A stretch of DNA of 63,927 bases, filler included, from Globobulimina sp. (taxonomy: Eukaryota), in the NCBI GenBank assembly GCA_003354225.1. It is 33 parts of 33 records of this genome, joined end to end, with 100 filler letters (N's around TTAATTAATTAA, not from the genome) between each part and the next. Parts side by side here need not be neighbours in the genome. Positions count along the whole stretch, not along the records: positions 9,706 to 11,546 come from PIVH01011342.1; 32 more parts are not named here. One strand, written 5' to 3'. The notes beneath the pieces are model-generated. The model was not told where the DNA came from, ran no database searches, and saw nothing but the letters and a program-made list of their open reading frames with translations. A program made the translations under genes and the position numbers. This document shows, piece by piece, positions 8,229 to 11,650 of this stretch. The stretch's first letter is position 1. Each line of letters begins with the position of its first letter.

Positions 8229-9605
8229 TGTTGGGTTAAGTCGCAATATCCATTCTTTCTGTTATATATTAGTATATTACATACAATACAATATAGGCAT
8301 TTGCAACCACATCAGCATTGAATGATCGTATATCAATTCAGAACAAAAATGCATTTCCTGAATGGTATAAAAGAAAATATATTTATCATTACAATCCAAA
8401 TAATCGCTTAGATTTCACACAATCAAATCTTATTTGACATTTATAATAGAAATTTTGAACAGAGCCTTTTTTGAAACACGTTTTTAAAACATAGGCCCGA
8501 ATTTGCGCAACGAAAATAAACTGCACCATGCAAAATTTACCTCAAGGATGTAGCACCTCAAGTATTATTGGATTGTGATTCGTCGAATGACGGATGTCAT
8601 GGTGGTGATCCTGACAAAGCATACGAATATATGCTGAAAAACTGCATCACCTCAGAAACATGCGCACCATACGAAGCAGTCGGACATGATACGGGAAGAA
8701 CCTGTGATGGCATGGCTCGATGCAAGAATTGTTCTCCAGGTTCAAGCTGTGTCTACCAAGCTGTGTCTACCGACATGGCTCCGTTAAAGGCGAAGCCGAT
8801 ATGATTGCTGCCTTACAAGACGGCACCATTGCCTGTGGCTTAGCTATCGTGACCGTAGAGAGTGATTTTTGGAATTACAAAGGCTTTGGCATTATTAACG
8901 ACACCACTGGCAATAATGACCCAGACCATGAAGTGTCCCTTGTTGGCTATGGTGTGGATAATGGCACAAAGTATTGGATTGGCCGCAATTCATGGGGTAC
9001 TACCTGGGGATTCGAGGGCTATTTCAGAATTATCAGAGGTACCAATAATTTGGGTATCGAGAGTGGATGCAGCTGGGCAACGCCCGCACAGTCACAAGTA
9101 TGGGTCAATAAAACAGAAACCGCGGATGATGCCTTCAAACATATGCAATATAAAAGAGCGGCGGAACGACCAGCACTCAACGACTGGCACACCATCAAAC
9201 CTGTCATTACTGAGCCATTGCCATCCAGTTATATCAATGTTGCTGCGTTACCTGATAAATTCCAATGGAATCCAATGGAAGGCAAGAAATCAACGTTAAG
9301 TAATGATATATTTTAGTATTTATACAGATGAAATATAATTATTGGCCAACAGATATTCCTCAATATTGTGGTTCCTGTTGGCCGCTTGGTACAACCTCTG
9401 CAGTATCTGATCGATTATCAATCATTCGCGCCGCGACAGGACAGTCAATGTGGCCTGAAATAAATCTCGCTCCACAGGTATTAATCAATGAAGATGGAGG
9501 TGGTACCTGTAATGGAGGAAACGCGCCCGGTGTGATGAGGTATATTGAGACGAATGGCATCCCGGATGAAACCTGTCAAGCCTACCAAGCAAAGAATTAT
9601 CCGCA
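8229..9605 (+). pseudogene. Tandem two-domain cathepsin Z/X-like papain protease; first domain disrupted
   Basis: Exons [50 protein letters not shown]; second domain QYCGSCW..LAPQVLIN; frameshift at a 14-bp duplication at 8743-8770. Confidence 0.8.
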
Positions 9606-9907
9606 NNNNNNNNNNNNNNNNNNNNNNNNNNNNNNNNNNNNNNNNNNNNTTAATTAATTAANNNNNNNNNNNNNNNNNNNNNNNNNNNNNNNNNNNNNNN
9701 NNNNNCTTCCCTTTATTTGCTAACATAAATATAACAGTTTAGAGATAAGTATACTTACGCTTAGTTTGAGGTGGGTTTGGCTGTCTTGTCACGAAATGCA
9801 CGGTACTGCAGCTGGGTCTCTGTACAGCATGAAATGATACAGCCTTTCTCATTTTAAGTATAGTGCTTCGTTCCCTTCATCTTTCTCTGTCTATCTGCTA
9901 TATACAA

Positions 9908-10058
9908 ACACTTTTACCCAAGTGTATACAACTATTATTGACGCACTTATACAAAAGTGCAGCGCAACGCTTTTACCCAAGCGTAGAATACCACCAATAC
10001 GGTCTTATATGTAGTTAAATATCCTGTCTTTACCCAGACAGTTGTACTTTTACCAGTA
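9908..10058. other. Array of five short hairpins with 6-nt loops; three have loop TTACCC on different stems
   Basis: ACACTT-TTACCC-AAGTGT; GCACTT-ATACAA-AAGTGC; ACGCTT-TTACCC-AAGCGT; CTGTCT-TTACCC-AGACAG; TACT-TTTACC-AGTA. Confidence 0.85.
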
Positions 10059-10240
10059 GGTCACTAGAACCGCAGTGTACCCCTATTAAAGATGGAGAGG
10101 GCACCCGTTGTGTAACGGTGTAACGGCAAGCGAGTAATACTAATAATAAAATGTACATTGCAAGTAATATAACCAATTAAATATGTAAAATAACTCAATG
10201 TCACACCACTTAAATATGTAAATAACACACAATTACTTAG

Positions 10241-11343
10241 TCAATCCGCACTTAAAAAAGAAGATTAAAATACGTAATAAAGTCATTCGGTTTTTCACGG
10301 GATTTGCCACTGCCGATCATGTGGAAATTCCCGCATTATTACATGCCACATTAAAGTATCTCTCATCGACGTATATTATTTCTGATATCAGCTCGCTGAC
10401 GAAGGAGATTTATGCGGCGTTCAAATCAAAACATGCCATACAATATATTTTGACGGCATGGGGCGAGACAATGGAGTTTGTGCTGTCCGCCATAAATTCA
10501 GTTGAAAGACCGTCCCATTTCTCCCGATTGTTGATAGAATGGGTCCAAATGGTCAAGGTCAACCTTAAATTGTTCAATATGAAGATTGCGTATTACGCCA
10601 AGAAGCCGTATTGGAATGTTGTGGTATTTTGGTCCACATTCATTGATATATTGCGGACTTATCTCATTTGTGGCACTCCGATCTGTTTATTGATGGATAA
10701 AAACTCGTTTACCAGATCCTTTCTGGATATTTCCCCGCGGTCCAATGTGGTCCAATTCCTTCTGAGCACTTTCAATGAATTTACAATGGAGGAATTTAAT
10801 AAAGGCAATAAAATCAATATTTTTGTGGACCGCGCCCCGTATTCCACCGCAAATTCGCAGCCACAACCTCCAAATCACCAAATTTCCAATGCCGTACCAT
10901 ATAAACGCCGAAACTATAACAACCGCAATAATTACAATAATAATGCAAATAATAACAGAGTGAATAACAACAACAGCCCCCCAAATACCAGGAGGCCAAC
11001 TAATAACCGCCAGAATCGTCCATGGAATACAGGTTATCCGCGCAATGGAAATAACTCATATTATCAGTCGAAGGATACATTGCGGGAATTGCGAGGGACT
11101 GCAGGCGAATGTATGTCAGAATATGGTGCCTCGTACCCATTTGATATCTGTTTATTTTTTTATTGTTTGGGCTCCTGTTTGAATCCAAAGAAGCAATGCG
11201 AACCATCGGCGGATGCCAAGTTTAAACATAAATGTGCCTTTCATCCGGATCAAAGCCATGATTTTAAATCGTGTGAAACGGCGAAATCGAAGCCAGAAAT
11301 TCATAAAAAGTTCATTGCCAAATTTAATGCGTTTAAAGCGTGA
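10241..11343 (+). CDS. Gag-like protein with Asn/Arg-rich linker and C-terminal Cys/His knuckle, resembling DIRS/Ngaro ORF1
   Basis: CLFFYCLGSC...C...FKHKCAFHPDQSHDFKSC after a low-complexity N/R/P linker; frame open from 10222, start uncertain. Confidence 0.5.
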
Positions 11344-11650
11344 CGGGCTGCTAATATGAGTCCATTAACCTATTTATATTTATTGCATGTGGTTTAGTAT
11401 TATAATCACAATGCATTTATAGTTTAACTAAATAAATAGACGTACCGTCAATATAAACCTTCTCGCCTACTATCCCTCTCCCATTGAACTAACCGGTTCC
11501 GGAACTAAAAACATTTCTCTTGGGGATAAAGAAAAAAAGACAAGGGNNNNNNNNNNNNNNNNNNNNNNNNNNNNNNNNNNNNNNNNNNNNTTAATTAATT
11601 AANNNNNNNNNNNNNNNNNNNNNNNNNNNNNNNNNNNNNNNNNNNNAACG

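What the first reader, a model, noticed from the sequence alone, without database searches (positions are those of the whole stretch)
9908..10058. Array of hairpins with a constant TTACCC loop on freely covarying stems, upstream of a Gag-like ORF
Seen: three perfect 6-bp stems of different sequence (ACACTT/AAGTGT 9908-9925, ACGCTT/AAGCGT 9967-9984, CTGTCT/AGACAG 10024-10041) close the same TTACCC hexaloop. Two variants have the same loop size (GCACTT-ATACAA-AAGTGC 9943-9960; TACT-TTTACC-AGTA 10045-10058). Compensatory stem changes around a fixed loop point to selection on a single-stranded structure, not a dsDNA repeat. Inference: a multivalent protein-binding platform, such as a packaging or replication signal for the adjacent zinc-knuckle protein, or an undescribed ncRNA. 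The loop reads GGGTAA on the other strand.
Basis: partly seen in the sequence, partly recalled or inferred. Interest (0 to 1): 0.7.

Follow-up and report, generated by a model that had tools for sequence, protein, structure and literature searches.

The report
Hairpin array in a retrotransposon intron
A row of tiny self-pairing hairpins with the same loop sits inside what appears to be an intron of a jumping gene from a single-celled eukaryote, in the part that only the unspliced RNA keeps, so it may be the tag that marks that RNA for copying; what binds it is untested.

Summary
The hairpins are real (0 of 2000 shuffles gave even two sharing a loop). They lie on a fragment of a Ngaro-like tyrosine-recombinase retrotransposon, in a ~500-nt segment between a large first ORF and a start-less zinc-finger ORF. 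Same-phase donor and acceptor signals in all copies checked mark this segment as an intron; no spliced RNA was seen. The UUACCN-loop hairpin recurs in 8 of 23 related intron stretches: 22 hairpins, all in sense orientation, none among 79 background sites. Stem pairs 2-6 covary (85 of 110 against 52 in permutations). Other lineages carry other repeated motifs at this place. The frames for reverse transcriptase and recombinase also begin at same-phase acceptors, so this intron would exist only in unspliced RNA, where retroviruses keep their packaging hairpin. Best reading (0.45): a multivalent protein-docking array that marks full-length RNA for packaging by the element's zinc-finger protein. 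Rivals: host splicing or export element, DNA-level sites. Strand and binder are not shown. The scan noted both the spliced element and this hairpin type before, on other contigs of this genome; the earlier notes I saw did not place the hairpins in the intron.

The parts
9706..10240 (+). 3' part of inferred intron 1 of the element (the contig starts inside it; the donor and the first ORF are off the contig)
   Evidence: Homologous segment is 462-662 nt between a phase-1 GT donor and a phase-1 YAG acceptor in the 10 close copies that span it, 26 nt in one more; donors
9768..9775 (+). G-rich conserved motif GAGGTGGG ahead of the conserved block
   Evidence: Alignment A2
9796..9855 (+). Highly conserved 60-nt block, two predicted stem-loops; function unknown
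   Evidence: 17 matches at 80-100% in G000; most of its positions invariant in 16 aligned copies; 18 predicted pairs, only 1 with a two-sided change; no Rfam or tRNA match
9908..9925 (+). Hairpin 1, ACACTT-TTACCC-AAGTGT
9943..9960 (+). Hairpin 2, GCACTT-ATACAA-AAGTGC; variant loop resembling the CTACAA/CTACTA hexaloops of relatives
9967..9984 (+). Hairpin 3, ACGCTT-TTACCC-AAGCGT
10024..10041 (+). Hairpin 4, CTGTCT-TTACCC-AGACAG
10045..10058 (+). Degenerate fifth unit, two bases shorter than the form seen in L031, L018 and L022
10218..10240 (+). Inferred 3' splice site, TAAAT ... TTAG, phase 1
   Evidence: YAG at the same phase in 21 of 21 loci
10241..11343 (+). Inferred exon 2: start-less Gag-position ORF (helical N-half, Asn/Arg-rich linker, Cys/His fingers)
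   Evidence: followed by RT-RNase H and recombinase ORFs in longer copies
11149..11274 (+). Cys/His region: C-x8-C-x6-C-x9-H followed by C-x2-H-x4-H-x4-C
   Evidence: C310, C319, C326, H336, C338, H346, C351 invariant in 19 aligned proteins; zf-CCCH matched 5 of 19 members but not this one
11344..11546 (+). Spacer between the Gag-position ORF and RT; the contig ends before the RT acceptor

Best explanation
The array is a set of RNA hairpins, 5-6 bp stem and UUACCN hexaloop, in intron 1 of a Ngaro-like retrotransposon. Shown: the hairpins, their covariation and fixed orientation, the element's gene order and repeats. Inferred from conservation: one donor at the end of the first ORF is spliced to acceptors in front of the zinc-finger ORF, RT and recombinase, so every spliced mRNA loses this segment. 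Inferred from that: only the full-length unspliced RNA carries the array, and since genomic copies keep the intron, that RNA is the one copied. Proposed mechanism: several copies of the element's zinc-finger protein dock on the loops and pick out the unspliced RNA for particle assembly and reverse transcription, possibly also damping splicing at the nearby acceptor as protein builds up.
For: Position: 64-327 nt upstream of acceptor 1 in 7 element copies. Intron signals: YAG phase 1 in 21 of 21, GT phase 1 in 16 of 17 loci checked, one ending a base short, canonical CAAG/GTAAGT or CAAG/GTACGT donors at the matching codon in 6 of 18 distant loci shown (read by eye), acceptors before RT in 11 of 11 and before the recombinase in 7 of 7. 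No precisely spliced genomic copy among the 15 G000 contigs that span the donor. Structure: 22 of 37 intronic TTACC sites have stems of 4 bp or more against 0 of 79 in the rest of the window; pairs 2-6 are Watson-Crick in 85 of 110 against 51.9 in permutations, 0 of 20000 as high, pairs 7-8 at chance. Orientation: 22 sense, 0 antisense hairpins. Element-specific: for the 12-base core, two or more further pairs in 12 of 19 element sites and 0 of 18 other sites in G000 (one unassigned site left out). The adjacent protein has a conserved Cys/His region with CCCH-type matches in relatives. Block and hairpins persist on a contig with no element ORF (L074), which splicing alone would not need. Analogy: HIV-1 residues between the major splice donor and gag are needed for packaging (PMC7599994, passages).
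Against: Only 8 of 23 intron stretches (several partial) have these hairpins; close lineages with a very similar zinc-finger region carry other motifs instead, such as unpaired GCAAAT repeats, and the label needs 4 changes on the protein tree, no fewer than 81 of 500 shuffles. One copy (L005) has a 26-nt intron with the whole module missing. More distant clades keep the intron but show no such array. G-U against A-C at the first non-Watson-Crick position is 8 to 7, so wobble pairs do not show that the sense strand is the one that folds. The loop is pyrimidine-rich, unlike the G-containing sites of retroviral nucleocapsid proteins (PMC7599994, passages). No spliced junction was found, so the intron is inferred. 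Sites in the covariation test are related by descent and duplication, so its P value is optimistic.
Confidence: 0.45

Rival explanations
1. The hairpins are RNA sites for a host RNA-binding protein that tunes splicing (retention against use of acceptor 1, 2 or 3) or exports the intron-retaining RNA. Lineages swap motif sets as they adapt to different host factors.
For: Position 64-327 nt before acceptor 1; donors in this clade (GTCTAT, GTTTAT and the like) match the host U1 candidates' 5' end poorly, as expected for regulated splicing; motif turnover without zinc-finger turnover; one further TTACC hairpin lies in the spacer before the RT acceptor in 2 copies (L035, L036).
Against: The stemmed form was not seen outside the element: 0 of 18 other core sites extend by two pairs. 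The module survives without exons in L074.
Confidence: 0.25
2. The motifs are double-stranded DNA sites (internal promoter or enhancer); the flanks are palindromic because a dimeric factor binds them.
For: Clusters of short motifs that differ between subfamilies resemble enhancer turnover; the GCAAAT repeats of sister lineages form no hairpins (0 of 20); the AGATAG and ATGCAAAT strings look like transcription-factor sites (recalled, not tested).
Against: The spacer is fixed and asymmetric while the arms change in matched pairs at four positions; orientation is 37 to 3 for TTACC and 22 to 0 for hairpins; a second family (loop AGAGA or AAAGA) shows the same matched arm changes.
Confidence: 0.12
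3. The hairpins act in the minus-strand single-stranded cDNA (loop NGGTAA), for second-strand priming, circularisation or recombinase loading.
For: DIRS-1 accumulates single-stranded antisense cDNA (PMC7192593, abstract and passages); both strands fold the same stems; wobble pairs do not pick a strand.
Against: The site is far from the terminal repeats where circularisation is expected; location just inside an intron has no meaning for a DNA-level signal.
Confidence: 0.08
4. No function: a short unit was duplicated and its arms were kept complementary by templated repair of quasi-palindromes.
For: Units within one copy are clearly related; the array is absent from many intact-looking copies and the whole module from L005.
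Against: The same loop is kept on both sides of a 100/99 branch among proteins about 50% identical while the DNA between units does not align by blastn; pairing stops sharply after pair 6.
Confidence: 0.07
5. The loops mimic the 5' end of U1 snRNA (or U5 loop 1) and pair with or decoy splice sites.
For: The loop is complementary to GGTAA; an ACTTACC string also occurs about 75-100 nt after the donor in several copies.
Against: The three host U1 candidates (all under the Rfam cut-off) begin TTACATACCTGG and share only TACC with the loop; the element's own donors are not GGTAA. The U5 likeness is recalled and was not tested.
Confidence: 0.03

Closest known systems
Ngaro superfamily of tyrosine-recombinase retrotransposons (order DIRS)
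   Same: Gag-like ORF, RT-RNase H, recombinase on one strand, A1-[ORFs]-B1A2B2 split direct repeats (PMC8547959 and PMC4157794, passages).
   Different: An extra ORF of about 680-780 aa in front; three start-less downstream ORFs behind same-phase acceptors; a ~500-nt retained intron holding a conserved block and hairpin arrays. None of this appeared in the passages read.
Retroviral packaging signal (HIV-1 psi hairpin between the major splice donor and gag)
   Same: Short hairpins in the region that all spliced RNAs lose, next to a zinc-finger protein gene (PMC7599994, passages).
   Different: Here a dispersed array of one repeated pyrimidine-rich hexaloop inside a gag intron, a CCCH-like protein, no LTR; binding untested.
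Spliced Ty1/Copia elements (Arabidopsis EVD, Drosophila copia, barley BARE1)
   Same: A retrotransposon that uses a host spliceosomal intron and needs intron retention for full-length RNA (PMC5580714, passages).
   Different: There splicing makes a short Gag-only RNA; here it appears needed to give three ORFs a start. LTR/integrase elements, not recombinase elements.
Repeated hexaloop hairpins of coronavirus SL5; hepadnavirus epsilon
   Same: Repeated or conserved small stem-loops as cis signals of a replicating RNA (search listing only; roles in packaging recalled).
   Different: No sequence relation claimed; different loops, hosts and replication.

Membership tests
Ngaro-like YR retrotransposon | Reverse transcriptase and RNase H ORF | tested here: met
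   RVT_1 E 3.6e-8 and RT_RNaseH E 9.6e-7 in L036, also L031, L038; this ORF is not on the window contig itself
Ngaro-like YR retrotransposon | Tyrosine recombinase ORF downstream on the same strand | tested here: met
   Profile of 10 proteins hits PDB integrase 3nkh_A at E 5e-4; Phage_integrase in 1 of 10 members, E 3e-5; R177, R332, W355, Y367 conserved. Divergent, weak scores
Ngaro-like YR retrotransposon | Split direct repeats A1..B1A2B2 with the inner pair after the recombinase | tested here: met
   Contig C17: 98-nt A repeat and 184-nt B repeat; distant L166 shows both. Not testable on the window fragment
Ngaro-like YR retrotransposon | No methyltransferase domain | tested here: met
   No methyltransferase family among Pfam matches up to E 1 for 3 RT ORFs, 2 recombinase ORFs and 3 first ORFs
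Ngaro-like YR retrotransposon | RT groups with reference Ngaro elements in a tree | not tested
   No named reference sequences were fetched; 66 RT homologues came without informative names
PAT-like / DIRS1-like | Methyltransferase domain; inverted repeats with ICR for DIRS1 | tested here: not met
   No MT match; repeats are direct and split
Spliceosomal intron | GT donor and AG acceptor in compatible phase, conserved across copies | tested here: met
Spliceosomal intron | Removed in RNA | tested here: inconclusive
   No junction in G000 or in contigs of 3 runs laid on L037; no run is on record as RNA and the assembly looks genomic (a 53-nt GT-AG interruption in the neighbouring protease gene)
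Packaging signal (psi-like) | Confined to unspliced RNA | tested here: inconclusive
   Follows from the inferred splice pattern, not seen in RNA
Packaging signal (psi-like) | Bound by the Gag zinc fingers and needed for encapsidation | not testable with these tools
   Needs binding and retrotransposition assays
Known RNA family (Rfam) or tRNA | Match to a curated model | tested here: not met
   Window contig: 2 chance-level matches, E 1.7 and 4.2; 5 related loci: 0 at E 1; ARAGORN 0 genes in 7 loci
Retroviral-type Gag | Capsid fold and CCHC knuckle | tested here: inconclusive
   Model pLDDT 76; no Foldseek match at E 0.001, best Z 5.5 at rmsd 5.9; fingers are CCCH-like plus C-x2-H-x4-H-x4-C. 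The first ORF was not modelled

The most novel reading that the evidence does not exclude
This is the first identifiable RNA-selection (packaging) signal of a DIRS-order retrotransposon: a modular array of fixed-loop hairpins kept inside a retained gag intron, read by the element's CCCH-type fingers, which lets an element that makes all its downstream proteins by splicing still copy only its unspliced RNA. The interchangeable loop families (UUACCN, AGAGA, CUACWA, GCAAAU) would then be lineage tags that keep co-resident families from packaging one another, and ORF-less copies of the module would be its parasites.
Probability: 0.3. Interest if true: 0.8.

Novelty: new variant of a known kind. 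Interest (0 to 1): 0.58.

Why it matters
How DIRS-order elements choose and prime their RNA is open (PMC7192593 states that the primer is unknown; passages), and a marker intron in DIRS-1 is lost on retrotransposition in that study. An element that keeps a natural intron at one codon across proteins far diverged must favour unspliced RNA. This array gives a small, defined target: 18-nt hairpins with natural stem variants and a 42-residue Cys/His region on the same contig, so binding can be tested directly. Even under the splicing-regulator rival, it would be a compact natural case of one donor choosing among three acceptors.

Tried and rejected
Search for a spliced junction: a pattern for donor-side plus exon-2 bases gave 3 hits against 8 for the control, none on a contig listed for the element; they were not inspected further. 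Laying three runs on L037 gave six joints, none from donor to acceptor; no RNA holder was listed, so this says nothing about expression. I first read the 963-aa ORF of L166 as an intron-less fusion; its middle aligns with the intron region of L165 and reads like a stop-free intron, so I dropped that. An ATG in the conserved block as the start of a mini-exon was rejected by eye: the distance to the next GT differs in phase between copies and the next ATG meets stops. Wobble-pair strand test: uninformative, 8 to 7. Consensus folding of the conserved block: too invariant to show covariation. Fold searches of the exon-2 model found nothing clear. Pfam and ESM Atlas gave no family for the window protein. 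No relatives in viral contigs. The two close loci from the metagenome collection (L129, L130) have the intron and block but no canonical TTACC hairpin, so the array itself is seen in one assembly only. Literature: searches listed no paper whose title or abstract start describes introns or such hairpins in Ngaro/DIRS elements; subscription papers and Repbase entries are not covered, and no supplements were read.

Full report
1. Observation. The window is a string of 33 unrelated contigs of about 1840 nt; the finding lies on the one at 9706-11546. The five hairpins are as described. In 9706-10221 four perfect 6-bp stems close 6-nt loops, three of them TTACCC. None of 2000 dinucleotide shuffles had two hairpins with one loop; of the other 32 contigs one has two and none three. 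The 17 other TTACCC sites in the window have stems of at most 3 bp. Folding energy of the whole stretch is only mildly unusual (z -1.88 and -1.40). Rfam gave two chance-level matches.

2. The element. The ORF at 10222-11343 (373 aa stop to stop) has 37 matches in the own assembly and one in the public protein set. Longer contigs show the order: first ORF of about 680-780 aa, a gap of about 500 nt, this ORF, an RT-RNase H ORF, a fourth ORF of about 430 aa. The fourth is a divergent tyrosine recombinase. Contig C17 and the distant L166 carry A1..B1A2B2 split direct repeats, and no methyltransferase family matched. These are the structural criteria for Ngaro-like elements (PMC8547959 and PMC4157794, passages). 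An RT tree with references was not made. The assembly looks genomic: the neighbouring protease gene has a 53-nt GT-AG interruption whose removal restores the frame, and unrelated genes abut the element on both strands.

3. The hairpins are in an inferred intron. The ORF has no start codon before residue 84, yet conservation begins near residue 7. At that point 21 of 21 loci have YAG in phase 1 (three positions placed by hand). The first ORF ends in a conserved K-V-E-G-L, whose Gly codon holds a phase-1 GT in 16 of 17 loci checked, the other ending one base short. In 18 distant loci the two ORFs are split at the matching place, six with textbook donors (read by eye). No spliced junction was found, but no RNA data were available. 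All 15 G000 contigs that span the donor run on into the intron, so no processed copy was seen. One, L005, has only 26 nt between donor and acceptor.

4. Anatomy of the intron. After the donor come an AT-rich stem-loop, a G-rich motif, a 60-nt block that is nearly invariant in 16 copies, then a variable region of repeated motifs, then the acceptor. The array lies in the variable region, 64-327 nt before the acceptor in seven copies.

5. The hairpin is a family trait. In 23 intron stretches (21 with an acceptor, several partial, plus L055 and L074; 10,648 nt) there are 37 TTACC sites; 22, in 8 stretches, have stems of 4 bp or more, against 0 of 79 in the rest of the window. Taking sites by sequence alone (TTTACCNA; 25 sites, 22 distinct), pairs 2-6 are Watson-Crick in 85 of 110 cells against 51.9 when right arms are permuted (0 of 20000), with three pair types at positions 2, 4 and 5 and two at position 3; pairs 7 and 8 are at chance. 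These sites are related by descent, so the P value overstates independence. The 12-base core occurs 38 times in G000 against 83 for the reversed control; two or more further pairs occur in 12 of 19 element sites and 0 of 18 others (L048 left out as unassigned, one site read by eye). Orientation is fixed: 22 sense hairpins, 0 antisense. A second family with loop AGAGA or AAAGA shows matched arm changes too (10 sites listed), and a third has CTACAA or CTACTA loops, close to the window's ATACAA. Against a universal role: UUACC arrays are missing from the L032/L033 group and from a group with unpaired GCAAAT repeats. On the exon-2 protein tree they fall on both sides of a 100/99 branch, which suggests an old motif lost or replaced several times, and they do not track the tree (4 changes; 81 of 500 shuffles as low). 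Distant clades keep the intron, some with their own covarying stem-loop near the donor, but show no such array. Wobble pairs do not resolve the strand.

6. The protein. Seven Cys/His residues are invariant in 19 aligned proteins; five relatives match zf-CCCH, the window protein does not. The model is helical with a disordered linker and has no clear fold match. That CCCH fingers bind single-stranded RNA is recalled knowledge.

7. Mechanism. If one donor serves three acceptors, the segment holding the array is absent from every spliced mRNA and present only in the full-length RNA. In DIRS-1 a marker intron is lost in new copies (PMC7192593, passages), so keeping a natural intron implies a bias towards copying unspliced RNA. 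In HIV-1 the region between the major donor and gag is needed for packaging (PMC7599994, passages). I therefore favour a multivalent docking array that marks unspliced RNA for the element's zinc-finger protein (0.45). A host splicing or export factor is the main rival (0.25): donors are weak against the host U1 candidates, motifs turn over while the fingers barely change, and one more hairpin precedes the RT acceptor in two copies. Duplex-DNA sites (0.12), a signal on single-stranded cDNA (0.08), neutral duplication (0.07) and snRNA mimicry (0.03) follow. L074 holds block and hairpins with no element ORF on its 1486 nt, which fits a cis role beyond splicing; L005 lacks the module, which fits dispensability or a dead deletion copy.

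8. Relation to earlier notes and literature. The scan had already described the spliced element (e1-7350058, e1-7350060 and others) and an array of seven NGGTAA hairpins on another contig with binder and strand unknown (e1-7368634; probably my L018, which has seven). These are unchecked notes and not independent support. What I add is the placement of the array in intron 1, its family-wide covariation, orientation and turnover. Searches listed no paper on introns or such hairpins in Ngaro/DIRS elements, judged from titles and abstract starts; passages were read in PMC8547959, PMC7192593 (with part of the abstract), PMC4157794, PMC5580714, PMC7599994, PMC12477816 and bioRxiv 10.64898/2026.05.21.726589, and the last two held nothing on the question. 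Subscription literature and repeat databases were not covered.

9. Verdict. A real, selected, orientation-fixed hairpin array in an inferred retained intron of a Ngaro-like retrotransposon; function inferred, not shown. New variant of a known kind; interest 0.58.

Noticed in passing
window 9796-9855; 17 matches in G000; L129, L130: A 60-nt block in the intron is far more conserved than the coding DNA around it (most positions invariant in 16 copies whose proteins are 42-56% identical to the window's). It has no Rfam match and is a better candidate than the array for a universal signal such as RT binding or priming.
   Followed up: partly
L074 (G000:C15929) 830-1486 and L048 (G000:C29751): Intron module with intact block and TTACC, AGAGA and CTACTA hairpins on a contig with no element ORF; L048 is an 81% identical partial copy. 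Possibly a non-autonomous derivative.
   Followed up: partly
L005 (G000:C24683), first 37 bases in element orientation: Copy in which only 26 nt remain between donor and acceptor; both splice signals are kept and the module is gone.
   Followed up: partly
L129, L154, L158 (ends): Contigs of 7.1-8.2 kb whose first and last 119 bases are identical, that is, assembled as circles; either collapsed repeats or circular intermediates. L164 reads from the recombinase through the repeats into the first ORF.
   Followed up: no
L133, L140, L156-L161, about 45 nt after the donor: A distant clade has its own conserved intron module, with a stem-loop whose arms differ between copies but stay paired.
   Followed up: no
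L166 (G000:C110), residues about 470-535 of the 963-aa ORF: The intron appears to be in frame and stop-free in this copy, so unspliced RNA could give a read-through protein.
   Followed up: partly
window 11480-11546: The contig's last 60-odd bases depart from the Gag-RT spacer of the closest relative L024 and match nothing else in G000; possible insertion, deletion junction or chimeric end.
   Followed up: partly
L167-L169: Three U1 snRNA candidates below the Rfam cut-off begin TTACATACCTGG, which would pair best with GTATGT donors rather than GTAAGT.
   Followed up: no
window 9300-9352: 53-nt GT-AG intron in a papain-family protease gene on the neighbouring contig.
   Followed up: partly
G000-wide: The RT family is large and diverse: 95 matches, many on contigs with intact ORFs of about 600 aa.
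   Followed up: partly
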